Positions 2,054 to 41,886 of a stretch of 64,000 nucleotides of DNA are shown here, in pieces. Every line of letters starts with the position of its first letter. Within the stretch, counting starts at the first letter, position 1. The notes under the pieces are model-generated. The model was not told where the DNA came from. It made no database searches and saw only the letters and a list, made by a program, of their open reading frames with translations. A program made the position numbers and the translations under genes. The stretch comes from a virus (Duplodnaviria; Caudoviricetes), in the IMG/VR virus record IMGVR_UViG_2663763243_000005, positions 14,632 through 78,631 of that record, one strand, 5' to 3'.

Positions 2054-3245
2054 AAACCACCTCGATATTCTCAGTACTGAACACCCCGAGCTGATTAAAG
2101 GCTATTCTCACTGCACTCTCATTGGCCTGCTCGACAGCAGTGCCAACGGTAATCGCATTCACAAAGCCATTACCGGCCACCAAATAATTGACTGGGGTAA
2201 ATAAACGGCCCGCGCCAATACTTTCACCAATTTTAAAGCCCAACTTAGAAAAGCCATTGGTCTGATCAAAACCGGTAATGCTGTAATCGACAATCGCCTG
2301 TTTAATCTCTTCGTCAATGAATTCGCTATTACTGGCGATCTCTACCCGTACATAAACCGGTATTAGTTGGGGGCGAAAAAAGGTTACGGTGATCGGGTTA
2401 CCTTTTGGGGTAACAGTATCCAACGAGATTTTATTGGGGAAAGTGTTATAACGGTTTAACCCACAACCGGGGTTTTTATTGATGGCAATGCTGTTAATAA
2501 CATCCTCGATGCTGCCACCATCAACAAATATCGCCATTGAGTGACCGAGCACCCCATTTTCGTCGGCTTGATCCTCAAAATTTTCATAAATACGCGCCCG
2601 TTTAACATCATCAATATTGACCAGCACCGCATAAATATTATCAATCTGATTGGAGCCAGGTAACGCTACTGATTCATTGCGCCGGATGCGAAATGCGTTA
2701 TTAGTTTCTTTATCCAATCCCATTGACGCTGCAGTGTTATTTGTCACCGCCGTAATGCCGCCGATCGGTGTGGCAATAATGGTAAGATTATGACTATTGG
2801 CCTCCTGCGCACCTGCCAGCGTACAAGTGACATTCACCGTCGCATTCCCTACCGCGTCAGTTACAACATCACCATCGGTCGCCCATAAGGTATTAGTCGC
2901 CCTATTTCTGATTAATGTCCCGGCATTAATTGGAGTAAAAGCGATACCGTGAAAATTAACGGTGGCGGTTGAATAGGTCGCACTTTTGCGTTTGATTCCA
3001 GCGAACGCAGCAATGCGGTCTAATTGTTGGTCAATCGCTGAGTTGGGATCAGCGGCGTGATAAGCATTAATTACCGCTTCATCCAGATTGGCTAATGCCT
3101 CACACCAGACCGCTATTGCCAGACCATCTGGTGATTCAGGATTAATATTCCAGCCGTCATCAATAGCAAGATAGCGCTGGCGCATAGTATCCAGATATTC
3201 ACTCAGCGTGGTGCCGCTGGCCCCGTCACGATTTATGGTTGCCAT
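2046..3245 (-). CDS. Baseplate J/gp47-like protein
   Basis: QLDRIAAFAGIKRK and ETNNAFRIRR motifs; 399 aa; synteny. Confidence 0.9.
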   Translation of the reverse strand: MATINRDGASGTTLSEYLDTMRQRYLAIDDGWNINPESPDGLAIAVWCEALANLDEAVINAYHAADPNSAIDQQLDRIAAFAGIKRKSATYSTATVNFHGIAFTPINAGTLIRNRATNTLWATDGDVVTDAVGNATVNVTCTLAGAQEANSHNLTIIATPIGGITAVTNNTAASMGLDKETNNAFRIRRNESVALPGSNQIDNIYAVLVNIDDVKRARIYENFEDQADENGVLGHSMAIFVDGGSIEDVINSIAINKNPGCGLNRYNTFPNKISLDTVTPKGNPITVTFFRPQLIPVYVRVEIASNSEFIDEEIKQAIVDYSITGFDQTNGFSKLGFKIGESIGAGRLFTPVNYLVAGNGFVNAITVGTAVEQANESAVRIAFNQLGVFSTENIEVVYV

Positions 3246-3595
3246 TAGATAAGATCCTCAGTGAACAGGAAATCAAATGCGTCGTTATTAATATCAATCA
3301 CCGCGGCAAATATCGTTATTTTGCGATTTTTCATATCGAGATCCATTTCAAAGCGGTTAATAGTCAGCACGCCTTTGGCCGCCAATAAGCGCTGTTTAAT
3401 ATTGGCTTCGGCAATGTCGCGTGAAGTTTTGCCCAATATGCTTTGAAACCACGGCGTTCCCTCGGTGGCATCAAGAAAATACTCGCCAAGAAATAACCGC
3501 AGGCAGCAGATCATGGCTTGCCGGGTTTCTTCTTTGCCGCTAGCAAACTGGCTACCGTGGGTAACAATGTCACCATCTTGGAAATTGCGGATCAC
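3245..3595 (-). CDS. Baseplate wedge / sheath initiator (gp25-like)
   Basis: GTG start after GGAGG; LRLFLGEYFLD..GTPW motif. Confidence 0.75.
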   Translation of the reverse strand: MIRNFQDGDIVTHGSQFASGKEETRQAMICCLRLFLGEYFLDATEGTPWFQSILGKTSRDIAEANIKQRLLAAKGVLTINRFEMDLDMKNRKITIFAAVIDINNDAFDFLFTEDLI

Positions 3596-3667
3596 AGTGC
3601 CTCCGGAAACAAAAAGCCCCGGCATAAGCCAGGGCGATAATAGGTAGGATTCAATCAGGGTAATGAG

Positions 3668-4348
3668 CTATTGCGGCCCATCAGTGCGATCATTGCCGCG
3701 TTGCACGCCGCCGTGGTCGTGGTCGCCAACTTCCAGCTCGCCAATCGCCAAGCCACCTTGAGTGACCTCAGTACGGCCATTAAGGGTGGTTTGCCCATTA
3801 TTGGTAAACTCTGGGCCGCTATAGCTCATGCCAGATTCGGTAAGCGCCAATGTGGTACCGCCAGCCGTCAAAGTCATTCCACTATCAGTAAGGTGAATGC
3901 GCACCCCGCCACTTTTGTTACTTAAACCAATCCCCTCGGTCGGCAAGCCCGCAATCGCGGTTTGTTGTGAGCGGTAACCAGGGGCAAAGAAAGCATCGGA
4001 CGGATTAAACATCCGTGCATCCAGTGGTGCTACCGGCCCGCCCTGACTGAGCCAATTATCGATAGAACGCTGGCTGAAATGAATATAGCCCTCGGTACCC
4101 GCTGGCAGCTCATGAAAAACCGTCCATTCGGCACTGCCAGAAAATTGCACCGGCACATGTTCGATAACGGGCAGTGTCTTAAATTGACCGTCACCGATAT
4201 GACGCTGAATGCCACACTCCACCACTGCGCGTTGTAGATCGGCGTTATAGCTAATGACCTTGCCGGGCATGCCGATCATCAAGTCACGCACCGTATCGCG
4301 CTTGAGCAGCATCATGGTGGTATACAGCGGGTTGCTCTCAATCATCAT
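3668..4348 (-). CDS. Baseplate central spike (Gp138-like)
   Basis: OB-type N-terminus, beta-repeat region, C-terminal HDHGGVQRG metal-binding apex. Confidence 0.85.
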   Translation of the reverse strand: MMIESNPLYTTMMLLKRDTVRDLMIGMPGKVISYNADLQRAVVECGIQRHIGDGQFKTLPVIEHVPVQFSGSAEWTVFHELPAGTEGYIHFSQRSIDNWLSQGGPVAPLDARMFNPSDAFFAPGYRSQQTAIAGLPTEGIGLSNKSGGVRIHLTDSGMTLTAGGTTLALTESGMSYSGPEFTNNGQTTLNGRTEVTQGGLAIGELEVGDHDHGGVQRGNDRTDGPQ

Positions 4349-4352
4349 TACC

Positions 4353-5246
4353 TCAGGGCATGCGCCATTGACTGATCAGCGTAGTTTTCCACGTGTCACC
4401 CCATAGAGTGCCTTCGTGGTATGTACGCAACACATTAAACTGGCCGGTCTGCTGCTGAATATTCGCCAGATTATTAAGGTCGGTGTTATACATGCCGCTG
4501 AAATTGATCGTCCAAAAGCTCGACGTAACATTAATTACATCAGCCGGCTGAATTTGATGATTCATTTTAACGTCAATTTCCATTGTGCTTAGATACCAGC
4601 GAGGCACCCCCTCCATGCCGTTCTGAGCGGTTATATCGTGGGTTACCCCTTTTCTTGCTGCTCCTTCTCTACCCAATAAAACGCGTGTTGGCGTTAGCAT
4701 CCAGTAATATTTCCAGTCCTCCCGTAAGGCATTCAAAATATCGCGGCACAGTCGACCACCTGCATTATAGGAAAAGGCAAAACGGGGAAGGTCTGAGAAA
4801 TCACCAATCACTTCAACATCAAGACCAAATTCACCTGCGACATCTTTCAGCATTTTTATGGCGGGAGTATTGGCTCCCCATACTTTAAAACTGGCAGTAT
4901 TCCATGCCAGCCCAATCGTGCGGCAATATAACCGCAGGCAGGTATTTACCCCCTCTTTGACCACTTCGACATTGTGAATCCGTCCGCTGAATATCGTGCC
5001 GATGTTGTCGCCATAACCAGCTTTTAATACCAGGTTGCCATAACGTTTTTCTTTATCGTCATAGCGCTGAATCAAGGCGCGGGTGCGCGCTGAAATACCG
5101 TAAAGAGTGATTCTGGCAGTAGCATCGACATTCTGCGGGGTATTATCGACGGCAAAGCGGATCTCTAATGGCGGCTGATAGGTAAGTTCATCGCCACTCA
5201 CTGGGGTAATAGTCAGTAAGTAATTGCGGCCAAAATAACTACTCAT
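4353..5246 (-). CDS. Baseplate hub protein
   Basis: LKAGYGDNIGTIFSGRI motif; lies before the spike. Confidence 0.75.
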   Translation of the reverse strand: MSSYFGRNYLLTITPVSGDELTYQPPLEIRFAVDNTPQNVDATARITLYGISARTRALIQRYDDKEKRYGNLVLKAGYGDNIGTIFSGRIHNVEVVKEGVNTCLRLYCRTIGLAWNTASFKVWGANTPAIKMLKDVAGEFGLDVEVIGDFSDLPRFAFSYNAGGRLCRDILNALREDWKYYWMLTPTRVLLGREGAARKGVTHDITAQNGMEGVPRWYLSTMEIDVKMNHQIQPADVINVTSSFWTINFSGMYNTDLNNLANIQQQTGQFNVLRTYHEGTLWGDTWKTTLISQWRMP

Positions 5247-5529
5247 TATCGGGATACCATGTCAGGCGATTATTAATACCAAGATTGGCGATAGTCGGGG
5301 TCTCCCCGGCTAATATCAGCGGGCCAATATCGGTATTAAGTCCCGCCAATAAATTAACGCCAATATGCAAAGCACGTCCCAAAACTACCGGTTCGCCCTG
5401 CTCATAAATATCGACGCAGAAATAATTAAAACGGGTGAGCCAGTGCAGACGAAAAACCAAATAGTGATTATTTAATTGCACTCGGAAACGCTGCACCGCG
5501 TAACCATTGTTTAATGGGATAATCTTCAT
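5239..5529 (-). CDS. Small baseplate protein
   Basis: 96 aa, coupled to neighbours; MKIIPL N-terminus typical of this module. Confidence 0.65.
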   Translation of the reverse strand: MKIIPLNNGYAVQRFRVQLNNHYLVFRLHWLTRFNYFCVDIYEQGEPVVLGRALHIGVNLLAGLNTDIGPLILAGETPTIANLGINNRLTWYPDNE

Positions 5530-6197
5530 TACGTGGCCTCAACAAAAACTTCACCAAATGAGTATTCACGTTGCCCCTGAGTGGCAGCACTATCGCCATA
5601 AGGTAAGTTGTCATTGGTTTCAGCGACCGTGTCGTAAATAATATTGAGCTGCAACAGTTCAACCACAATCTCTAACCCGCCCTCATTCTCTTTTTTCAAT
5701 TGGGTGCGGGTATTGGTGATCAGGCAATTTTTATAGGCTGCTCCCCGGCTGGCCACTAATTCAAACGGCGTATGTGAGCGCTGCAACTCACGCAATTGCT
5801 CGAGTAAATTTTGCGAACGGGTTGAGCGCGATTGTGATCCCAAGCCGCCGGAATACAAACTGGTGCCAACCGAAGCAGCCACTCCTGCCAGCGCCGCCGC
5901 TCGGCCAGAAAGCAAACTGGCCGCCATACCAGTAGTGATACTGGCTCCGGCCCCCAGTAGTCCGGCAATGCTGTTATCTTGCTGGGCCAGCAGTTCACGA
6001 AACCAGTTATCGGACACACCGATAATCATGGTTAGCGCCAGCGCACGCGTCACGGCGTTATCATGAGCGGTATTGGCATCCTCCAGTGGAAACTCACTGA
6101 CATCAGTGCGCAGCTCGCTCGACTCTTCCAGTAATGCATCAAAATAGAGATTGCCGATTTTCGGTCGATTACGAGTAAATAATCCGGTAATAGCCAT
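5529..6197 (-). CDS. Baseplate/tail tube initiator-like protein
   Basis: FDALLEES..VSEFPLE motif; directly after the tape measure. Confidence 0.65.
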   Translation of the reverse strand: MAITGLFTRNRPKIGNLYFDALLEESSELRTDVSEFPLEDANTAHDNAVTRALALTMIIGVSDNWFRELLAQQDNSIAGLLGAGASITTGMAASLLSGRAAALAGVAASVGTSLYSGGLGSQSRSTRSQNLLEQLRELQRSHTPFELVASRGAAYKNCLITNTRTQLKKENEGGLEIVVELLQLNIIYDTVAETNDNLPYGDSAATQGQREYSFGEVFVEAT

Positions 6198-32712: not shown

Positions 32713-33209
32713 TTAGCACCCCCGCCTTTTGTTTTGGCCCTGAGTATCGAATCCACATAAAAACGCTCACTGACATTGTGCAAGGTAAATTCCGCTACCG
32801 GTTTTTCATCGCGGGTAATATCAACATGTGGCGATTTCATCAAGCCAATCATACGCATCTGCAACATGCGCAGCGTAATGCCGTGATCCGGATAGGATTT
32901 ATCAAGCGCGGCAAGAATACCGGTATAGGTCAATGTTTTACCCAGCATCACTGCCACCAGCTCACTGGCTTTTAGCCGTAGTGCTGATGATGTGTTAGAT
33001 TTTTTAGCCGCTTTAGACTTCTCTGATTTCGTTGCTGCCGATGTAGGAATTACCACCTTTTTCGGCTTGACCGGCGGCGTATAAGGCGCTCGGCATCTGG
33101 CGCGAGCCGCCATTCCCCAGGCATCAATGATGCAGGATGAATGATCACATTTGTCGTCAATCACTGGCCGATTATCATTGATAAAATTATTACAGTTATT
33201 AATTTCCAT
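32709..33209 (-). CDS. Hypothetical early protein
   Basis: Starts in a CGAGGTATGACCAATG box; coupled to the methylase. Confidence 0.7.
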   Translation of the reverse strand: MEINNCNNFINDNRPVIDDKCDHSSCIIDAWGMAARARCRAPYTPPVKPKKVVIPTSAATKSEKSKAAKKSNTSSALRLKASELVAVMLGKTLTYTGILAALDKSYPDHGITLRMLQMRMIGLMKSPHVDITRDEKPVAEFTLHNVSERFYVDSILRAKTKGGGAK

Positions 33210-33226
33210 TGGTCATACCTCGCTCA

Positions 33227-34777: not shown

Positions 34778-35021
34778 GTGGCACCCGCCACGGCTTTTTA
34801 GCTTTAACGACTTTCGCTACCGGTTTATCCCGCATCCGCTTATAAGGCTTGGCGTATGTCTTAGCCCAAACTAACGCGCTGGCAAATGTAGAGTTCGGCG
34901 TATCGGTGTAATGCTTACCGCCTTGAATAGCCGCCGATCTGGCGACTGTCTCGCTAAAACCGGCACGTTGCAGTTCATCTCGTAATTGTTGCTCGACTTG
35001 TTCTCTGGAAAATCTGGCCAT
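34770..35021 (-). CDS. Small hypothetical protein
   Basis: 83 aa; starts in a CGAGGTATGACCAATG box. Confidence 0.7.
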   Translation of the reverse strand: MARFSREQVEQQLRDELQRAGFSETVARSAAIQGGKHYTDTPNSTFASALVWAKTYAKPYKRMRDKPVAKVVKAKKPWRVPHG

Positions 35022-35034
35022 TGGTCATACCTCG

Positions 35035-35475
35035 TTATGCAATCAACTGCTGTGTCAGCGGAATAAGTGCATGTATCGCCTCAGTGGCTTTAATTAATTT
35101 CTGCGACATATCAGAGCAGCCCAACAACACCGCACTCATCGCCAGCGAGAAATCGCGCAATGCTTGTGCCGCCAAATAATTCACTGAATTGGGGTTTTCC
35201 AATCTGGCACGCCGCTCTCCTGGCAATGCCTGAAGAATGGCTGGGGTAAGTTCGGCGATTTTTGCTCTGGCCTTGTCAGTGTCACTATCAACCCAGCGGA
35301 ACAAGCGCTGTTTGTTGTTGTATGTAGCGTGTTCATCCTCAATGGGCGTGAGTGGAAGCTCATCACCACCGAGATCGAAATAAGCCTGTGCCACTTCTGC
35401 CGCGACAATTTCTTGTTTGGTTTCTGCTGCCCAACTCCGCAATTCTGCGCAGATGGCATCATGTTTTAATTTCAC
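35035..35475 (-). CDS. ydaT: YdaT-family CII-equivalent regulator
   Basis: KHDAI..L.SWAA...QE.VAAE...AY...NNKQRLFRWV..DT......EL.PAI..ALP; position after cro. Confidence 0.8.
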   Translation of the reverse strand: MKLKHDAICAELRSWAAETKQEIVAAEVAQAYFDLGGDELPLTPIEDEHATYNNKQRLFRWVDSDTDKARAKIAELTPAILQALPGERRARLENPNSVNYLAAQALRDFSLAMSAVLLGCSDMSQKLIKATEAIHALIPLTQQLIA

Positions 35476-35795: not shown

Positions 35796-36188
35796 ATGAA
35801 AAATCCCGGTGAACGCATCAGAGAGCGGCGAAATGAGCTGCAACTAACCCAACGCAGCCTTGCAAAGGCGGTGAAAGTGTCCCATGTCACCATTTCACAA
35901 TGGGAAAGCAACGACAGTTCACCTTCTGGCAAAAATCTATTTGCCCTGAGTACCGCATTACAGTGCTCACCAACGTGGATTTTATACGGGGATACAGATC
36001 AATCCCCCTCACCCGCAGTAAAGATCCCACCTGAACTTGATGAGAGAGAAGCTGAACTAATTCAATTGTTTGCGTCTCTTCCTGAATCAGAAAAAGAGCG
36101 GCACTTAACAGACCTTCGGCTTAAAGTTGATGAGTTAAACCGACTTTTTGAAGAGCTGTTACAAACCAGAAAAAAACTCGCCAAATAA
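35796..36188 (+). CDS. cI: CI-like repressor (DicA/RacR type, no S24 peptidase domain)
   Basis: GERIRERR..L.LTQ..LAK.V.VS..TISQWE HTH; divergent from cro. Confidence 0.9.
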   Translation: MKNPGERIRERRNELQLTQRSLAKAVKVSHVTISQWESNDSSPSGKNLFALSTALQCSPTWILYGDTDQSPSPAVKIPPELDEREAELIQLFASLPESEKERHLTDLRLKVDELNRLFEELLQTRKKLAK

Positions 36189-36785: not shown

Positions 36786-36959
36786 ATGGAGCAACTATTA
36801 TTCGCTTTAGTTGTATCGGTATGCCCTGCTCATGAAATTTGTAGGGATATTGTCTATGAAGTTTATGACACCCAACAAGAATGTGAAAAAGTCATTTTCG
36901 AAAATAGGTTATTCAACGGCAACTGCTACCCAGTCGATGCCATTATTCATCAACAATAA
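36786..36959 (+). CDS. DUF1482 family small protein
   Basis: 57 aa, below ORF-track cutoff: MEQLLFALVVSVC...C.D....VYDTQQEC......GNCYPVD.IIH; AGGA RBS. Confidence 0.75.
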   Translation: MEQLLFALVVSVCPAHEICRDIVYEVYDTQQECEKVIFENRLFNGNCYPVDAIIHQQ

Positions 36960-36972
36960 CGAGGTATGACCA

Positions 36973-37305
36973 ATGAAATTTAAAGAAATTAAATTATCTA
37001 TTAAACCACTTTATAATGACGTTGCTCAGTTATCCGCAGAAAATGAAGTAATCGGCTATGCCGTTAAAAATAAAGAGGCTAATTCACCGCTGGCTTCTAT
37101 TATTTTACCTAATGGTGAACTTTTAGGGGATTACCATTGTATGGGCTGTGCAATTAAAGCCGCCACTAAACATTATATTGGCATTGGCGAAGATGAAGCC
37201 ATTGAGGCCAATTTCAGCTTCGGTAATAACAACGTCCGTAACTTATTATTAGCTGCATTGTTATCAAGTGTTGTTGATGATTTAACCACTCAATCCAGAC
37301 ATTAA
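36973..37305 (+). CDS. Hypothetical early protein
   Basis: 110 aa; HCMGC motif; starts in the repeated box. Confidence 0.7.
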   Translation: MKFKEIKLSIKPLYNDVAQLSAENEVIGYAVKNKEANSPLASIILPNGELLGDYHCMGCAIKAATKHYIGIGEDEAIEANFSFGNNNVRNLLLAALLSSVVDDLTTQSRH

Positions 37306-37400
37306 TAATTGCAGTCAACACCAGTGAAACGGTCGTAAAACTCAGCTTATTAAAGTGGATATATCGACGCCGAAAACGTAACCGGCATTAAAACAGACGT

Positions 37401-37512
37401 AAAAAAGCCCACACAAGGTGGGCAATCTTACCGGCTTAACGTCCCGGTGACGGCAGAGTCAGCGACCAAACCGACTCTAGCGAGGTATGACCAATGGCTT
37501 CCACCACTGGAC
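37401..37512 (-). ncRNA. Predicted antisense sRNA complementary to the six-fold repeated RBS/start box
   Basis: TTGTCT-18-TATAAT promoter (37548-37519), two internal hairpins, terminator GCCCAC-CTTGT-GTGGGC-TTTTTT (37423-37401). Confidence 0.65.
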
Positions 37513-37808
37513 GCCGAAATTATAGCGAGATCTCTATGCAAAAGACAACACTTAGAATCCTGGCTGATTCTATCGTCATCGCTAATGCTGCTAAATCCCC
37601 CGCATTAGTCGAAGTTGGAGCGAGTCCAGACGCGATAATGGGCACTGTTTCAGATCTAATAGAATCCGGCATTGTAGATGTACGTGATTTAATTTCTCTG
37701 GCTTTAGAGCAAATTAAAAAATGTGACTCTACGTCGTTAGATCATGTATTACCCACAGATGAATTAATAGCACTGACCGATTGTTATTATCAGATTAAAA
37801 ATAATTAG
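37494..37808 (+). CDS. Hypothetical protein under cis-antisense control
   Basis: 104 aa; starts in the repeated box; antisense promoter lies in its first codons. Confidence 0.7.
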   Translation: MASTTGRRNYSEISMQKTTLRILADSIVIANAAKSPALVEVGASPDAIMGTVSDLIESGIVDVRDLISLALEQIKKCDSTSLDHVLPTDELIALTDCYYQIKNN

Positions 37809-37821
37809 CGAGGAATGACCA

Positions 37822-39975
37822 ATGAGCTTATTTGTATGTGGGTTTCTACCCAAAAAATCAGCTATGGCAAATGGTGCTGTAGCCATGGCGATTACTGTTG
37901 ATGCCAAAAATCAAAAAATGGCAACAATGAAATCCACCATGTTATTAGAAGGGGAATTCCCCGGATCAAGTGGTAATTTCTTTGCACCTAAAGTGTGTGC
38001 TGATCGTGTGGGTTCCCCTCGACCGCCGGTACATGATGATGCTGAAGATAATGCCATATTCAGCACTGAATGGATGGAACATAATCAATGGAATGATGAA
38101 ACTAAAGAATTTGAACCTATCGTTATTGATAATACTGACGAAATTGACAATGTTAAAAACATCTTCGATTTACCAATTAACGTAAGAATTGCATATGTTT
38201 TATTATATGGCGTAGAGCCTGAAATTGTTGATAGCCATCTATTATCTAATGCATACGATTTAATTAATGATGATGAATCAGAGCCGTTATATCGTGCAGT
38301 TATTGATGGCTTGCCACGCTTACCACAAGTTAAGCACATGTACATCACTACATTGGCACAACTCATTGATGATGTTCAGGCCCACACTCCGGTATTTAAA
38401 TCATGGCCGGACGTTAACAAGTTTGCTGAAAAGTGGATCAACTCTCGTCCAGATGAGCGGGAACACCCTGACAATCAAGCGAATGAACAAGCCAATTCAT
38501 CGCCTACGCCAGCGAGTCATCGTGAACGCGATTATAAGCATGATTACGCCTCTCTCGATCTTGAAGTCGCCTGCGCCCTGTTCCCCGGTGATTATGATGT
38601 TTGGGAAGTGCCATCATCCATTTATCGTGGCGCTAAAGAAAAAGTAGAAAAAGGTGATGAGGCTTGGCGGCGCTGGTCAACTGCTTTACGGATTATCCCT
38701 GCCATTTTAGCGGTTTCCCGTGATGATCTGTTTGCAATGATCCGCAGTGCTGAACTGGATATTCATAAAGACCCAGCCAAGCTGAAAGCCTATATCAATC
38801 AGTGTTTACAGCTTGATGTAATCAAAGCCGATGATGTGAAAACAGCAAACCTTGGCGATGGCAAATTTAGTGTTGATGGCTTGACCGGCGCAGCCAACGA
38901 TTCACCGGCGAATACCAGCACAATCGAAAAACCAAAAACTGTTACAAAAGTGCCAAAAGGTGCAACAGAACAGCCCAATCATGTATCAAACATTGCAAAT
39001 AGCACCATTAATGACGAAACAGCGACCATTAACGCCGAGACCCATACCAATGAGCAGATAGAGTCTGAATCACCGCATCCTACCGCAGATGAGTTCCAAC
39101 AGCGGGCATCACAGATCGATCAGGATATCTCTAAGTTACCCAAAGAGTCTCAGGATAATTTAAGTATCTGGAAATCAGTACAGCGCACCGATCCCGCGCG
39201 TACCAAGCGCAAAGATACGACCAAAAATGGCAAAGTCATTCGCTCTGTGACCAGCATCAATCCTACCTATCAGACAATGAGAGCCACGGAAATCTTTGGC
39301 CCCTTTGGTAGCGGCTGGGGCGTGGATATTATCAGTGAGGAATTTATACCCGGCATCCCATTTATGGAGTCGATTCTGGATAGCAACAATCGAGAGATCG
39401 GGCGCAAGCCCATGCGTGATGGGGATGGCACCATTCTACGGACATCCAACCACACTATGCGGATTGAACTGTGGTACCAACACGCAGGAGGTCGGGGCCG
39501 CTTCCCCGCTTTTGGTCATACCAAACATATTTATCAGAGTACCAACGGTTTCATTTGTGACGATGAAGTCAGCAAAAAAAGCCTAACGGACGCCACGACC
39601 AAAGCATTAGCACAGCTTGGTTTCAGCGCTGATGTGTTTATGGGTCTGTTTGATGATGCTGAATACACCGCCGACAATAATATTGAGTTCGGTATTAAAA
39701 ATGCCAGCACTAAAGCTGATGATGTGGTTCGTCTACGTAAAGAGTTAGACGACAAATTCAAAGCCAATACCGAGACGATGAAAACAGCAGTCACGGCGAA
39801 TGAAGTGACAAAAATCAGCACCTCACTAACACGCACCATCGGGGTTCATCTCAAGAATGCCGAATCATCCCATGATGATGAACACGTCAAATATCTGACC
39901 GGCCGTCTAACCCGTTTGAATCAAATCAAAGATGAGTGCCTGACAAAATTTGTCACTGAGGGAGAAAAAGCATGA
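37822..39975 (+). CDS. RecE-N-like region fused to a Rad52/Sak-like annealing domain
   Basis: N-terminal part like the exonuclease VIII N-region (LDLEVACAL, WRRWSTALR); C-terminal ATEIFGPFG.GWG...KKSLTDATTKAL..LGFSADVF. Confidence 0.7.
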   Translation: MSLFVCGFLPKKSAMANGAVAMAITVDAKNQKMATMKSTMLLEGEFPGSSGNFFAPKVCADRVGSPRPPVHDDAEDNAIFSTEWMEHNQWNDETKEFEPIVIDNTDEIDNVKNIFDLPINVRIAYVLLYGVEPEIVDSHLLSNAYDLINDDESEPLYRAVIDGLPRLPQVKHMYITTLAQLIDDVQAHTPVFKSWPDVNKFAEKWINSRPDEREHPDNQANEQANSSPTPASHRERDYKHDYASLDLEVACALFPGDYDVWEVPSSIYRGAKEKVEKGDEAWRRWSTALRIIPAILAVSRDDLFAMIRSAELDIHKDPAKLKAYINQCLQLDVIKADDVKTANLGDGKFSVDGLTGAANDSPANTSTIEKPKTVTKVPKGATEQPNHVSNIANSTINDETATINAETHTNEQIESESPHPTADEFQQRASQIDQDISKLPKESQDNLSIWKSVQRTDPARTKRKDTTKNGKVIRSVTSINPTYQTMRATEIFGPFGSGWGVDIISEEFIPGIPFMESILDSNNREIGRKPMRDGDGTILRTSNHTMRIELWYQHAGGRGRFPAFGHTKHIYQSTNGFICDDEVSKKSLTDATTKALAQLGFSADVFMGLFDDAEYTADNNIEFGIKNASTKADDVVRLRKELDDKFKANTETMKTAVTANEVTKISTSLTRTIGVHLKNAESSHDDEHVKYLTGRLTRLNQIKDECLTKFVTEGEKA

Positions 39976-40484
39976 GCACAAGCGCCATATCATTAGCCAC
40001 TGATTACCGAAAATTGCAGGAAATGGCCGATAGCGGTGATGAACTCACCCCCGAAATGGTCGCTGACACTCTCTCTGGTATTGAGGGCATGCTGGAAGAT
40101 AAGTTCGATGCCTTGATGGCATTGGTTCGTAACACGCTGGGTCAGGCAGAGATATGTGCCAACGAAGCCAAGCGGATGAGTGCACGCAAGAAAAGTTTTG
40201 ATAATCAGGCTGAAATCTACCGTAAATATATATTGGAATGCATGATTCAGGCCGGCAAAGACTCGATCAAAACGGCGTCTAATACATTCACTGCCCGAAA
40301 AGGGACAAAAAAACTCGTTATCACCGATGTAAATTTGTTGCCTGATGAATATGTAGACTCCGTTTCTCAGGTGCAAATTATCACCACCCCAAAAGCCGAT
40401 GAAATCAAAGCTGCCTTAAATGAGGGCCTATTGATAGCCGGTGCCAAGTTTGAAACTGGCGAACGTTCGTTAGCCGTCCGCTAA
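39972..40484 (+). CDS. Gp157-family protein
   Basis: DTL.GIEG..EDK...E.KR...RKKS......LPDEY...IKAAL..G..I.GA. Confidence 0.85.
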   Translation: MSTSAISLATDYRKLQEMADSGDELTPEMVADTLSGIEGMLEDKFDALMALVRNTLGQAEICANEAKRMSARKKSFDNQAEIYRKYILECMIQAGKDSIKTASNTFTARKGTKKLVITDVNLLPDEYVDSVSQVQIITTPKADEIKAALNEGLLIAGAKFETGERSLAVR

Positions 40485-40501: not shown

Positions 40502-40556
40502 AAACTGAACCGGTCAGCGCGTTACTATGCTGGCCGGTCATATCGAGGTATGACCA

Positions 40557-40871
40557 ATGGCTAAATTAATGACATTAACCGAATGGTGTGATGAAACGTA
40601 TGCGACTGACAAGCCGACGATTCAAACACTCCAACGCTGGGCCAGAAACGGTAACTTTTACCCTGCGGCAGAAAAACACGGCAGACAGTATAGGGTAAAA
40701 CCTAATGCTATTTATATCGATCCGAAGGATTTCAATCTCGGTAAAAAAATCAAAGATGCCAAAAGCGCGGCCCCTGCGCGGAATGCGTTTATGGAGAAAG
40801 TGATCAATGACTCGGCGGAAAAAGTACGATGCGAACTTACCGCGCAATCTCACCTATCGCCATCGCTATAA
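40557..40871 (+). CDS. xis: Excisionase
   Basis: MTLTEW...P...TL.RWAR.G..YP...KHGR.YRV...A.Y; overlaps int. Confidence 0.9.
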   Translation: MAKLMTLTEWCDETYATDKPTIQTLQRWARNGNFYPAAEKHGRQYRVKPNAIYIDPKDFNLGKKIKDAKSAAPARNAFMEKVINDSAEKVRCELTAQSHLSPSL

Positions 40872-41886
40872 ATCATACTATTGGCGCAATCCGTTAACAG
40901 GGAAAGAAATCCCGTTAGGCCAAATCTCCCGCAGAGAAGCCGTTTCACAATCTATCGAGGCCAATAATTATGTTGAGCAAAACTACTCTCCTGTATTACT
41001 ACTGGAAAAATTGAAAGGCACACAAGAGTACACAATGACCTCCTGGCTTGAACGTTACGATGTCATATACAAGCGCAGAGAATTGGCAATGAACACTTAC
41101 AAAGTTCGCAAGGGGCAAATAGCCATGATCAGCGAAAAGATGGGCAATATGGTTCTGGCTAAAATCACCACCCGTCACGTTGCTGAATTTCTAGAGTTTT
41201 GGGTGGCACAGGACAAAAAAACCATGGCCGCCACCATGCGATCAGTGTTGTCTGATATTTTCCGAGAGGCGATTGTCGAGGGCCATATAGATAATAATCC
41301 AGTGACACCGACACGCTCAGCTAAACCGGTGGTGAAACGTGAGCGCCTGGAACTGGATCAGTATCTCGCTATTCGTGAGGTCGCTGACACATTACCGGCG
41401 TGGTTTGGGCTATCAATGGATCTGGCACTGGTGACGGGCCAACGACGTGAAGATTTATCACTGATGCGCTTTGACCAGATTGTTGATGGCAGATTACAGA
41501 TAGACCAAGGCAAAACAGGAGCCATGATCTCCCTGCCCTTAGATCTTGAGCTTAAAGCCGTTGGCCTACGTCTTAACACCGTGATTGAACAATGTAGATT
41601 AGCCAGTAAGACTGATTTTATGATAAGTGCTGGCATCAGAAAAAATAGCCCTGATGGCTCACTGCATCCAGATAGCCTGACAAAGAAATTCGTAACGGCG
41701 AGAAAAGGAACAGATTTTCGTTTTGATGAGAGTCCACCAACTTTTCACGAGATCAGAAGTCTCGCTGGGCGATTGTATGAAAAGGAAAAAGGTAAAGAAT
41801 TTGCGATGAAACTGCTGGGGCATAAATCGGAGAAGATGACGAACAAGTATCTTGATACGAGGGGTAAAGAATACGTAATGCTATAA
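40807..41886 (+). CDS. int: Lambda-family tyrosine integrase
   Basis: Arm-binding N-terminus; catalytic GQRRED, FHEIRSL, LGHKS and KY residues. Confidence 0.97.
   Translation: MTRRKKYDANLPRNLTYRHRYKSYYWRNPLTGKEIPLGQISRREAVSQSIEANNYVEQNYSPVLLLEKLKGTQEYTMTSWLERYDVIYKRRELAMNTYKVRKGQIAMISEKMGNMVLAKITTRHVAEFLEFWVAQDKKTMAATMRSVLSDIFREAIVEGHIDNNPVTPTRSAKPVVKRERLELDQYLAIREVADTLPAWFGLSMDLALVTGQRREDLSLMRFDQIVDGRLQIDQGKTGAMISLPLDLELKAVGLRLNTVIEQCRLASKTDFMISAGIRKNSPDGSLHPDSLTKKFVTARKGTDFRFDESPPTFHEIRSLAGRLYEKEKGKEFAMKLLGHKSEKMTNKYLDTRGKEYVML

What the first reader, a model, noticed from the sequence alone, without database searches (positions are those of the whole stretch)
37401..37548. Candidate one-to-many phage sRNA that can mask the RBS and start codon of six early genes
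Seen on the - strand: promoter TTGTCT-18-TATAAT (37548-37519), a ~110-nt RNA with hairpins CCAGTGG/CCATTGG and AGAGTCGG/CTGACTCT, and an intrinsic terminator (37423-37401). The RNA contains AGCCATTGGTCATACCTCGCTA, with the anti-SD part (TCATACCTCGC) unpaired between the hairpins. It is fully complementary to the start of ORF 37494. It could also pair with five other starts: xis (19 nt perfect), ORF 33209 upstream of the methylase (19 nt), ORF 35021 upstream of the replication gene (18 nt), ORF 36973 (16 nt) and the RecE/Sak fusion (19 nt, 1 mismatch). Known: cis-antisense RNAs with the promoter inside the first codons exist (SymR, P22 sar), but they act on one main target. Inference: a single sRNA imposes a translational layer of lysogeny or immunity control on both early operons. 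I do not recognise a described system with this layout.
Basis: partly seen in the sequence, partly recalled or inferred. Interest (0 to 1): 0.9.

Follow-up and report, generated by a model that had tools for sequence, protein, structure and literature searches.

The report
Prophage small RNA matching six start-sites
A Yersinia-type prophage carries a conserved small RNA gene, read backwards inside its early operon, whose exposed stretch mirrors a private ribosome-binding/start-codon tag on six early genes, so one RNA probably holds most early functions down, although no transcript or repression has yet been seen.

Summary
The 16-19-nt SD+ATG box occurs 6 times (0.03 expected), only in the early region. 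On the minus strand, 37548-37401 holds a promoter-like site, a well-folding ~113-nt RNA (z -4.2) and a terminator.

Relatives make it a real RNA gene. I found 43 viral contigs, 12 genome contigs (Yersinia, Serratia, Erwinia, Mixta, Izhakiella) and Aeromonas phage pAEv1818. In hairpin 2, 7 of 10 pairs change on both sides and 99.8% of cells stay paired; G.U pairs fit only the minus strand.

The seed comes in private types (A, C, B/D, E), and the early-gene boxes of each phage carry the matching type. Every contig with two or more exact boxes also has the RNA.

There is no Rfam match. The closest known RNA is IsrB of Salmonella Gifsy prophages: same slot beside recE, same orientation, same hairpin-loop motif. 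It has been detected experimentally, has no known function and has no boxes.

Most likely this is a cis- and trans-acting anti-RBS repressor of the delayed-early gene blocks. Expression and repression are untested, and the RNA-seq attempt told nothing.

The scan has noted this kind of element before on other DNA (e1-5795162, e1-1965382, e1-5795254).

The parts
37519..37548 (-). sRNA promoter, TTGTCT-18-TATAAT. The -35 overlaps codons 3-4 after the internal ATG at 37536 of the opposite gene.
   Evidence: Promoter-like hexamers at 16-19 nt spacing recur in at least 10 different upstream sequence contexts among relatives (read). The homologous IsrB 5' end was mapped about 6 nt after its TAGAAT (PMC2330248 passages; sequence).
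37400..37512 (-). Predicted sRNA of about 113 nt. The 5' end is inferred as 7 nt after the -10; the 3' end is the U tract.
   Evidence: The covariance model R1 matches 37397-37529 at 154.6 bits.
37491..37510 (-). Hairpin 1 (CCAGUGG-UGGAAG-CCAUUGG). Its 3' arm is the anti-start-codon part of the seed.
   Evidence: In relatives, one-sided changes in the 5' arm keep pairing (G.U to A-U in L022, L048, L057; A-U to G.U in L064).
37478..37498 (-). Seed (anti-box) GCCAUUGGUCAUACCUCGCUA. The anti-SD part, 37478-37490, is unpaired in the MFE and centroid folds.
   Evidence: It is complementary to the six boxes.
37455..37479 (-). Hairpin 2. Its loop UUUGGUC (37464-37470) is a second complement of GACCAA in the box.
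   Evidence: 10 pairs, 7 with changes on both sides, 99.7-99.8% paired. The loop 3' base is C where the box has G (types A, C, E) and U where it has A (types B, D).
37429..37453 (-). Conserved 3' core CCGUCACCGGGACGUUAAGCCGGUA. Two overlapping helices (CGUC/GACG and ACCGG/CCGGU) may form a pseudoknot. It may be a chaperone platform (inference).
   Evidence: helix CGUC/GACG has 2 of 4 pairs with double changes and 100% paired. Helix ACCGG/CCGGU has 1 of 5 with a double change and 98.5% paired. The invariance of 19 of these bases in A1 follows from the search pattern used.
37401..37423 (-). Intrinsic terminator (GCCCAC-CUUGU-GUGGGC plus U6). It works only on the minus strand.
   Evidence: One stem pair covaries G-C to A-U in 8 of 40 sequences. 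The + strand has no U tract after the stem.
37480..37498 (+). Box copy opposite the sRNA (cis target). It is the start of ORF 37494-37808, or of a leader ORF fused in frame to ATG 37536.
   Evidence: In relatives the same ATG opens 12-14-codon ORFs that stop before the next gene.
36959..36977 (+). Box at the start of ORF 36973-37305 (110 aa, phrog_2434, unknown function). 16 nt pair.
37808..37826 (+). Box at the start of the 717-aa RecE-like exonuclease (37822-39975); gam (39972-40484) overlaps its end. 19 nt pair with 1 mismatch.
   Evidence: The same T-to-A mismatch is present in all 10 type-A recE-like starts listed.
40543..40561 (+). Box at the start of xis (40557-40871); int (40807-41886) overlaps its end. 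19 nt pair.
35017..35035 (-). Box at the start of the 83-aa ORF 35021-34770. This ORF heads the closely spaced block that contains the replication gene (34576-33629) and DUF3268. 18 nt pair.
   Evidence: Orthologues (MA-F-S/T-R/K-EQ) carry the box type of their resident sRNA.
33205..33223 (-). Box at the start of the 166-aa ORF 33209-32709, whose end overlaps the start of the 731-aa DNA methylase gene (32712-30517). 19 nt pair.

Best explanation
Positions 37512-37400 (minus strand) encode a ~113-nt small RNA of an uncatalogued family distantly related to IsrB of the Salmonella Gifsy prophages. It is made from its own sigma-70 promoter, against the direction of the early-left operon.

Between two hairpins it exposes an anti-Shine-Dalgarno stretch, which continues into an anti-AUG stretch held in the 3' arm of hairpin 1.

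This seed is the complement of a private 16-19-nt junction box (stop codon, CGAGG, UAUGACCA, AUG). The phage places that box at the first cistron of six early gene blocks on both divergent operons. The blocks are: the small ORF plus replication gene plus DUF3268; ORF166 plus methylase; ORF110; ORF104 or its leader; recE-like exonuclease plus gam; and xis plus int.

Pairing covers the SD and the start codon. It should therefore block 30S binding and, through translational coupling and duplex cleavage, lower the whole block. The cis copy pairs over the full RNA length.

The switch genes (the cI-like, cro/YdaS-like and cII/YdaT-like genes) have no box and would escape.

The most likely use is a prophage-expressed threshold filter that keeps leaky early transcripts (excision, recombination, replication) untranslated. 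As a side effect it would act on incoming phages that carry the same box type.

Shown: the sequence features, RNA-level conservation and covariation, co-variation of seed and boxes, and restriction of the boxes to prophage early regions. Inferred: transcription, repression, timing, and dependence on a chaperone.
For: 1. The box is non-random and confined to the early region.
- 6 copies against 0.03 expected.
- 6 in the 78.6-kb record and 0 for the control pattern.
- In a 4.0-Mb Yersinia genome with the identical RNA, all 6 matches (up to 1 mismatch) lie within 7.2 kb around the RNA gene.

2. It is an RNA gene.
- 43 of 44 viral loci (L031 false), 12 of 12 genome-contig loci and pAEv1818 share the architecture.
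- Hairpin 2 has 7 of 10 pairs with changes on both sides and 99.8% of cells paired. Shifted controls give 27-43% paired.
- About a fifth of the hairpin-2 cells are G.U, which would be A-C on the + strand.
- Promoter-like hexamers persist in at least 10 different upstream contexts.

3. Seed and boxes change together.
- Type C RNAs: 20 of 20 trans boxes are type C.
- Type A RNAs: 103 boxes are type A, 35 are equidistant between A and C, and none is type C.
- Type B/D phages carry B/D boxes at orthologous genes.
- Type E: 4 exact copies in a 4.8-Mb genome, all within 5.3 kb around its RNA gene.

4. The hairpin-2 loop is a second complement of the box core, and its 3' base follows the G/A difference between box types.

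5. All 7 further contigs with two or more exact type-A boxes have the RNA.

6. The anti-SD part is unpaired in the folds of types A and B.

7. IsrB, the homologue in the same slot, is a detected 88/94-nt transcript in Salmonella lysogens (PMC2330248, passages).
Against: - No transcript evidence. Contigs from RNA runs span the whole region without strand information, and the raw-read run had 0 reads.
- The co-variation rests on about four lineage-level events. The cis copy of the box necessarily matches the RNA, so a shared constraint on all boxes could mimic part of the signal.
- Exceptions exist. The recE box always has one mismatch. The type-F RNAs (L087, L090) differ by one central base from their own type-A trans boxes. 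Type-B RNAs face many D-type boxes, which would leave a one-base bulge. xis of type-D phages carries a type-A box.
- In types C and D the seed is largely paired in the MFE when folding starts just after the -10.
- IsrB-bearing Gifsy-2 has no repeated box, so the family can exist without the one-to-many layout.
- Single-sequence promoter and terminator scans are at chance level.
Confidence: 0.6

Rival explanations
1. Cis-only antisense RNA. The RNA is real but controls only the transcript it overlaps (the leader or ORF 37494 and, downstream, recE-gam-xis-int), by duplex formation, RNase III cleavage or transcriptional interference. The boxes are alike for another reason, such as a preferred translation-initiation junction or short homology that lets gene cassettes be swapped between related phages.
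For: - Complementarity in cis covers the full RNA length.
- IsrB sits in the same slot in Gifsy-2, and that phage has no boxes.
- Mismatched cases exist: the recE box, the type-F RNAs, and xis in type-D phages.
- The box always lies at stop/start junctions of a mosaic gene set.
Against: - Four private box types each match the resident seed at dispersed orthologous genes.
- The hairpin-2 loop, which lies opposite no box, is also complementary to the box core and follows its type.
- In pAEv1818-type phages the copy opposite the RNA opens only a 13-codon ORF, yet the seed is maintained.
- No contig with two or more exact boxes lacks the RNA.
Confidence: 0.22
2. The box is the site of a phage protein (a RegA-like translational repressor, or a nuclease acting on the junctions) that differs between lineages. 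The RNA is then a decoy or competitor for that protein, or an unrelated neighbour.
For: - The GACCAA core appears twice on the + strand leader, once in the box and once in the loop of the complement of hairpin 2.
- T4 RegA is a precedent for one repressor acting on many early start sites (recalled, not checked here).
Against: - No candidate protein that co-varies with box type was identified, and I did not look for one systematically.
- The G.U pairs place the conserved structure on the minus strand, not on the leader.
- Perfect 16-19-nt complementarity is what an RNA partner needs and more than a protein site needs.
Confidence: 0.08
3. It is not an RNA gene. The promoter-like and terminator-like sites are chance, and the hairpins belong to the + strand leader.
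For: Promoter-like and terminator-like sites are no more frequent than in shuffles. No expression data were obtained.
Against: - Covariation includes G.U pairs that fit only the minus strand.
- The U tract lies only on the minus strand.
- The -10 is conserved at a fixed distance from hairpin 1 in many upstream contexts.
- The homologous IsrB was detected by Northern blot and primer extension.
Confidence: 0.03

Closest known systems
IsrB-1 / IsrB-2 sRNAs of Salmonella Typhimurium prophages Gifsy-2 / Gifsy-1 (Rfam RF01386)
   Same: - It lies between the recE-type exonuclease gene (sbcA) and the preceding small gene, and is read against the early-left operon.
- Its promoter overlaps the start region of the gene it faces.
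- It has a hairpin with the loop CGCUUUGGUCGG. This matches UUUGGUC in our hairpin-2 loop and is identical to the loop of the type-E relative L079.
- It ends in an intrinsic terminator.
- It is a detected 88/94-nt RNA induced by starvation (PMC2330248, passages). [quoted passage not shown]
   Different: - RF01386 scores our RNA at 13.4 bits against a gathering score of 35 (E 4.3).
- It finds nothing in the genome that holds an identical copy of our RNA.
- Our model R1 does not find IsrB in Gifsy-2.
- IsrB lacks hairpin 1 and the anti-SD/anti-AUG seed, and Gifsy-2 has no repeated start box.
- No target or function of IsrB appeared in the papers I could search.
P22 sar RNA (cis-antisense over the ant ribosome-binding site)
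   Same: It is a small phage antisense RNA that pairs with a translation start and lowers synthesis (review PMC12197685, section 2 read).
   Different: sar acts on one overlapping target. Here the same seed also matches five non-overlapping starts on both operons.
P1/P7 c4, P4 CI and N15 CA immunity RNAs (recalled; Rfam C4 family)
   Same: These phage immunity RNAs have exposed bases that pair with repeated short sites in early transcripts. Their specificity types differ between related phages.
   Different: - They are processed from the sense leader of the operon they control, and they act on two sites in one transcript.
- No Rfam C4 match appeared here.
- Our RNA has its own antisense promoter and six sites.
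- This comparison rests on recall, not on a call.
STnc6030 of Salmonella prophage BTP1
   Same: It is a prophage-expressed antisense RNA that protects the lysogen from related phages by base pairing. Escape mutations fall in the paired region (review PMC12197685, section 4 read).
   Different: It has a single target inside a late (tailspike) gene, and it has no shared start box.
T4 RegA translational repressor (recalled)
   Same: One regulator shuts translation of many early messages by occupying their start regions.
   Different: RegA is a protein with loose sequence specificity. Here the regulator is an RNA with an exact, lineage-private match.

Membership tests
IsrB (Rfam RF01386) | Covariance-model score at or above the gathering score (35 bits) | tested here: not met
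   The window scores 13.4 bits, E 4.3. There is no match at gathering score in the window. RF01386 gives no match at E<=0.001 in G001, which holds the identical RNA. As a positive control, Gifsy-2 scores 99.3 bits.
IsrB (Rfam RF01386) | Position and orientation: next to the recE/sbcA-type exonuclease gene, antisense to the early-left operon | tested here: met
   Gifsy-2 IsrB lies at 5993-6080 (+), between exoVIII (3070-5955, -) and STM1010. In pAEv1818 the RNA lies directly before exodeoxyribonuclease 8. In the window one extra ORF (37494-37808) lies between the RNA and the recE-like gene.
IsrB (Rfam RF01386) | Penultimate hairpin with the loop CGCUUUGGUCGG, followed by a terminator | tested here: inconclusive
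   The loop motif UUUGGUC is present, but on an additional hairpin (hairpin 2). The hairpin that aligns with IsrB's (ACCGG/CCGGU) has a different loop. L079 is intermediate.
Trans-acting base-pairing sRNA with an anti-RBS seed | Independent transcription unit (promoter, terminator) that yields a stable structured RNA | tested here: met
   Sequence and covariation evidence only. The transcript itself has not been observed.
Trans-acting base-pairing sRNA with an anti-RBS seed | Seed complementary to several non-overlapping mRNAs, with co-variation of seed and targets | tested here: met
   Five trans sites pair over 16-19 nt. Private types A, C, B/D and E are documented, with the exceptions already listed (type F, the recE mismatch, xis in type D).
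Trans-acting base-pairing sRNA with an anti-RBS seed | Demonstrated repression of targets, and chaperone (Hfq or ProQ) association | not testable with these tools
   No functional data exist. ProQ association is reported only for IsrB (PMC5391140, passage).
Cis-antisense RNA (sar / SymR type) | The RNA overlaps the translation start of the opposite gene, with its promoter inside that gene | tested here: met
   The RNA (37512-37400) covers the SD and ATG 37494. Its promoter (37548-37519) lies inside ORF 37494.
P1 c4 / P4 CI immunity RNA (Rfam C4) | Rfam C4 model match, and processing from the sense leader of the controlled operon | tested here: not met
   No C4 match appeared at E<=10 in 37350-37600. 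The RNA is antisense and has its own promoter.

The most novel reading that the evidence does not exclude
Each lineage of these Rac-like prophages labels the first cistron of every delayed-early gene block with a private 16-19-nt translation 'barcode'. It also carries one IsrB-family RNA whose seed, and a second loop, read that barcode. The RNA, made by the resting prophage, would then be a second, post-transcriptional immunity determinant, independent of the repressor. Its specificity types (A, C, B/D, E, F) would decide which related phages are silenced on superinfection and which co-resident prophages cross-regulate. This reading would also give the orphan Salmonella sRNA IsrB an ancestral function.
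Probability: 0.3. Interest if true: 0.8.

Novelty: new variant of a known kind. Interest (0 to 1): 0.66.

Why it matters
Phage antisense RNAs described so far act on one overlapping gene or on two sites in one leader (review PMC12197685, sections 2 and 4 read). Here one RNA would control most delayed-early functions of a temperate phage (excision, integration, recombination, replication, a methylase) through a tag written into their start sites. The lysis-lysogeny switch genes would stay free.

Three consequences follow:
- The orphan sRNA IsrB, known since 2008, gets a testable function.
- The lineage-private seed/box pairs point to a second layer of phage immunity specificity.
- The pairs are a natural set of orthogonal sRNA / start-site pairs that could be reused as regulators.

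The four searches of the held papers and the Pas-sRNA preprint (abstract) describe no such layout. This scan has noted the same kind of element before on other DNA.

Tried and rejected
1. Expression. The look-up of sequencing runs and read laying covered X1, X3, X4 and X13. The three oligo-dT RNA runs are kept as contigs. One 3.9-kb contig spans the whole stretch and the others miss the RNA gene. There is no strand or end information, and DNA carry-over is possible. The raw-read run X13 gave 0 reads. This is neither support nor refutation.

2. Whole-window RNA duplex energies. One search timed out. One search is not discriminating: only the cis site stands out, three boxes (xis, ORF 33209 and the recE-like start) sit among unrelated windows at -40 to -45 kcal/mol, and the other two are not in the top 20. 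I dropped this in favour of mismatch counts.

3. Rfam. There is no family at gathering score in the window. There is nothing at E<=0.1 in L001, L076, L079 or L082 apart from a tRNA.

4. RF01386 across 151 Enterobacterales genomes found nothing, and nothing rang in the 14 control genomes either. That search is therefore uninformative about IsrB's range.

5. R1 across 151 genomes of the order.
- Strong matches came only from the two genomes already known.
- Of the six weak matches, L079 is a true relative (type E).
- L076 and L082 are a different multi-hairpin RNA.
- L080 and L081 share little beyond the terminator.
- L077 and L078 were seen only as weak alignments and not pursued.

6. E. coli complete genomes gave no match. 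Pas sRNAs of E. coli (abstract only) were rejected as unrelated. E. coli 'IsrB' (AzuCR) is a different RNA that shares the name; this is recalled, and the listing was the prompt.

7. I first set aside L058 ('Sphingomonas') and L066 ('Streptomyces') as false hits without looking at them, and left them out. One search showed that both carry a full match, and one search showed it is identical to the type-B RNA of L029. The loci have 52-53% G+C, so they are probably contaminant contigs (inference).

8. The leader GCCGGAAAGACGG plus box plus short ORF, seen in relatives, is not in the window.

9. Supplementary files of the papers were closed. Table S1 of PMC2330248, and the ProQ data cited in PMC5391140, may hold more on IsrB that I could not see.
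Full report
**What is in the window.**

On the minus strand, one search finds TTGTCT-18-TATAAT at 37548-37519. It also finds a terminator-like stem at 37423-37407 (6 pairs, 5 G-C) followed by TTTTTT. On their own these scans are at chance level: 7 promoter-like sites against 8.1 expected, and 3 terminator-like sites against 2.4.

The RNA between them (37512-37400) folds into four parts:
- hairpin 1, CCAGUGG/CCAUUGG;
- an unpaired UCAUACCUCGC;
- hairpin 2, AGAGUCGGU/GCUGACUCU with loop UUGGUC;
- a short hairpin and the terminator.

MFE is -47.4 kcal/mol and z is -4.2. None of 200 shuffles folds as well.

The + strand opposite reads TAG-CGAGG-TATGACCA-ATG, that is a stop codon, an SD, an 8-nt spacer and a start. 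This box occurs six times with up to 3 mismatches, against 0.03 expected. There are no further copies in the 78.6-kb provirus record. All six copies lie at ORF starts in the early region.

**The neighbourhood.**

The prophage is Rac-like.
- An HTH repressor lies at 35796-36188 (+).
- It faces a Cro/YdaS-like gene and a CII/YdaT-like gene on the minus strand.
- These are followed by a small ORF, the replication gene, DUF3268, a 166-aa ORF and a 731-aa methylase.
- On the + strand lie small ORFs, a 717-aa RecE-like exonuclease, a Mu Gam-like gene, xis and int.

The six boxes sit at the first cistron of closely spaced or overlapping gene blocks (coordinates):
- 35021, then the replication gene and DUF3268;
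- 33209, then the methylase (ATGA overlap);
- 37822, then gam (overlap);
- 40557 xis, then int (overlap);
- 36973 and 37494, each alone.

The repressor, cro-like and cII-like genes have no box.

**Relatives show a real RNA gene.**

blastn against isolated phages found only Aeromonas phage pAEv1818. The match is 55 nt at 85.5% and covers the 3' part and the terminator. It lies in the gap before that phage's exonuclease VIII gene. The flanking sequence shows the same architecture with different hairpin sequences.

A pattern from the shared core found 44 viral contigs. 43 of them have the architecture; L031 is a false hit. The same approach found 12 genome contigs. These are Yersinia aleksiciae (RNA identical to the window's), Y. 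frederiksenii, five Serratia, Erwinia, Mixta and Izhakiella. The other two contigs, labelled Sphingomonas and Streptomyces, carry a type-B RNA identical to L029's. At 52-53% G+C they are probably contaminants. I had first wrongly set those two aside.

The 32 distinct versions then in hand were aligned (A1). A model-based alignment of 40 distinct versions followed (A4; 40 of 41 sources matched).

Structure counts on these alignments:
- In hairpin 2, 7 of 10 pairs change on both sides while 99.7-99.8% of cells stay paired. Shifting the partner by 1-3 columns gives 24-47% paired.
- About a fifth of the hairpin-2 cells are G.U. On the + strand these would be A-C, so the folded strand is the minus strand.
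- One terminator pair covaries, G-C to A-U in 8 of 40 sequences.
- In the 3' core both CGUC/GACG (2 pairs with double changes) and the overlapping ACCGG/CCGGU (1 pair) are kept. This suggests a pseudoknot or alternative folds.

One caveat applies to the core. Nineteen of its bases are invariant in A1 only because I searched with them. Variants turned up once I searched by box instead.

Promoter-like hexamers at 16-19 nt spacing persist in at least ten different upstream contexts (read). In type A the -10 keeps a fixed distance from hairpin 1.

**Seed and boxes change together.**

The unpaired seed falls into types:

| Type | Box it mirrors | Where seen |
|---|---|---|
| A | CGAGGTATGACCAATG | the window |
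| C | GAGGCATGACC... | |
| B and D | GGAGCATA(A)ACC... | |
| E | GAGTTTTGACC... | L079 |
| F | one central change from A | L087, L090 |

One search scored 55 loci. It counted sites with ACCAATG and up to 2 mismatches to any of four 15-mers, and excluded the cis copy. Duplicates L002-L012, plus L031, L058 and L066, were left out.

| RNA type | Trans boxes found |
|---|---|
| C | 20 of 20 type C |
| A | 103 type A, 35 equidistant A/C (the GAGGAATG form), 6 D-like, 2 A/B, none C |
| B | 5 B and 8 D |
| D | 10 D, 4 A/B, 1 A |

After collapsing identical site sets to 27 combinations, the pattern holds. Type C gives 10 of 10. Type A gives 42 A, 16 A/C, 3 D and 1 A/B.

Orthologous genes carry the box of their resident RNA. 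The gene before the replication gene (MA-F-S/T-R/K-EQ) has the A box in type-A phages and the D box in B/D phages. xis has the C form in type-C phages.

In a 4.8-Mb genome the type-E box occurs exactly four times. All four lie within 5.3 kb around its RNA gene and on both strands. Hits with 2 mismatches elsewhere are at control level.

In the 4.0-Mb Yersinia genome all six A boxes lie around the RNA gene.

The hairpin-2 loop, which faces no box, is also complementary to the box core. It reads UUUGGUC against GACCAA in types A, C and E, and GUGGUU against AACCA in types B and D.

I searched viral contigs for the exact type-A box. 14 contigs were not already known.
- All 7 with two or more boxes, and one with a single box, have the RNA.
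- The other six have one box each and no RNA in the locus.
- Five of these six were checked over the whole record and had none (L114 was not checked). They are fragments, estimated 8-76% complete, and single 16-mer hits may be chance.

**Results against the reading.**

- No transcript was seen.
- The co-variation amounts to about four lineage-level events.
- The cis copy of the box matches the RNA by necessity.
- The recE-like start always carries one mismatch, in 10 of 10 type-A cases.
- Type-F RNAs mismatch their own type-A boxes by one central base.
- Type-B RNAs face many D boxes.
- xis of type-D phages has an A box.
- In types C and D the seed is mostly paired in the MFE if the RNA starts right after the -10.
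- Erwinia G004 holds two type-A RNA genes, so prophages of the same type can coexist.

**The cis target.**

In the window the box ATG (37494) is in frame with ATG 37536. In relatives with other downstream genes the same ATG opens a 12-14-codon ORF (MASTTGRR.YS...) that stops before or inside the next gene's SD.

In pAEv1818 the copy opposite the RNA opens a 13-codon ORF before recE. Two further boxes there open 14-codon ORFs that overlap annotated starts.

The unit from promoter to terminator is thus a portable cassette. The first 14 codons of ORF 37494 may be a leader.

**Comparison with known systems.**

Rfam 15 has no match at gathering score. The best weak match is isrB at 13.4 bits (gathering 35, E 4.3).

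In Gifsy-2, IsrB (99.3 bits) lies between exonuclease VIII/sbcA and STM1010 and is read against them. That is the same slot and orientation. Its promoter overlaps the exonuclease start. Its hairpin loop CGCUUUGGUCGG contains our hairpin-2 loop motif, and it is identical to the loop of L079, which looks intermediate.

However, R1 does not find IsrB. RF01386 does not find our RNA in G001. Gifsy-2 also has no repeated box. I therefore call the RNA a distant, enlarged relative of IsrB and not a member of RF01386.

IsrB was detected as 88- and 94-nt species induced by starvation (PMC2330248, passages). [quoted passage not shown] I found no function for it.

A 2025 review of phage sRNAs (PMC12197685, sections 2 and 4 read) lists sar, OOP, aQ, STnc6030, sas and others. 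All of these act on one gene. Comparisons with P1 c4, P4 CI and T4 RegA rest on recall.

**Mechanism and verdict.**

The best-supported reading (0.6) is a cis- and trans-acting anti-RBS RNA. The open anti-SD stretch, and perhaps the hairpin-2 loop, would start pairing. The duplex would then extend over the AUG by opening hairpin 1. The ribosome is excluded, and coupled downstream cistrons fall with the first one.

IsrB is expressed in lysogens. By analogy, the RNA would filter leaky early transcripts in the prophage state and would be overrun on induction. Type-specific action on incoming phages is a bolder possibility (0.3). The main rival is a cis-only role (0.22).

It is a new variant of a known kind. 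Earlier notes of this scan (e1-5795162, e1-1965382, e1-5795254, e1-6253905) describe the same kind of element on other DNA and named IsrB as closest. I tested that lead here.

Noticed in passing
L076:1501-1660 (-) and L082:1501-1660 (-), both in genome G057: This is a different candidate sRNA, next to a tRNA gene in L076. It has three successive hairpins whose loops all read UUGGUC or UUGGUA (GGCGAG-UUGGUC-CUCGCU, UGUCGGGG-UUGGUC-CCUCGGCA, ACUGGG-UUGGUA-CCCCGGU) and then a terminator. It has no Rfam match. It shares the loop motif of IsrB and of hairpin 2 here.
   Followed up: partly
window 37429-37453 (-): The conserved 3' core can form two overlapping helices (CGUC/GACG and ACCGG/CCGGU). Each has some compensatory changes in relatives (L097, L090, L115), which suggests a compact pseudoknot or a switch.
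   Followed up: partly
window 37808-37826 (+) and the recE-like starts in L013, L020, L022, L041, L048, L064, L084, L100, L111: The box of the recE-like exonuclease always reads GAGGAATG instead of GAGGTATG, in 10 of 10 type-A phages listed. A fixed single mismatch to the RNA might tune repression of this gene.
   Followed up: no
L052:11883 (+); G002:C1:487372-487386: In type-D prophages the xis-like gene carries a type-A box that does not match the resident type-D RNA. This is probably a swapped xis-int module.
   Followed up: no
L020:4515 (-), L022:4287 (+), L024:3574 (+), L025:3763 (-), L032:6751 (+), L001:1575-1650 (+): A recurrent leader is a small hairpin GCCGGAAAGACGG (reminiscent of a nut boxB stem-loop; recalled), followed by the phage's own box type and a short ORF that overlaps the next gene's start. 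It is not present in the window.
   Followed up: partly
G002 (Serratia fonticola), C1:184364-184496 and C1:492028-492160; G004 (Erwinia), C51 and C69: One genome holds two prophages with different RNA types (A and D). Another holds two type-A copies. This bears on whether the types act as compatibility groups.
   Followed up: partly
L058 (contig labelled Sphingomonas sp., 42.5 kb) and L066 (labelled Streptomyces sp., 1.4 kb): Both carry a type-B RNA identical to that of viral contig L029, in loci of 52-53% G+C. They are probably contaminating phage or enterobacterial DNA in those assemblies.
   Followed up: partly
window 36929-38100, as covered by the contig of run X1: The related prophage copy in that run differs at 25 positions, and none of them lies between 37349 and 37633. 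The RNA gene and its promoter region are the best conserved part of the stretch.
   Followed up: no
window 36786-36959 (+): A 57-aa ORF with a hydrophobic N-terminus ends in TAA directly before the box of ORF 36973. It is a possible small membrane or Kil-like early protein.
   Followed up: no
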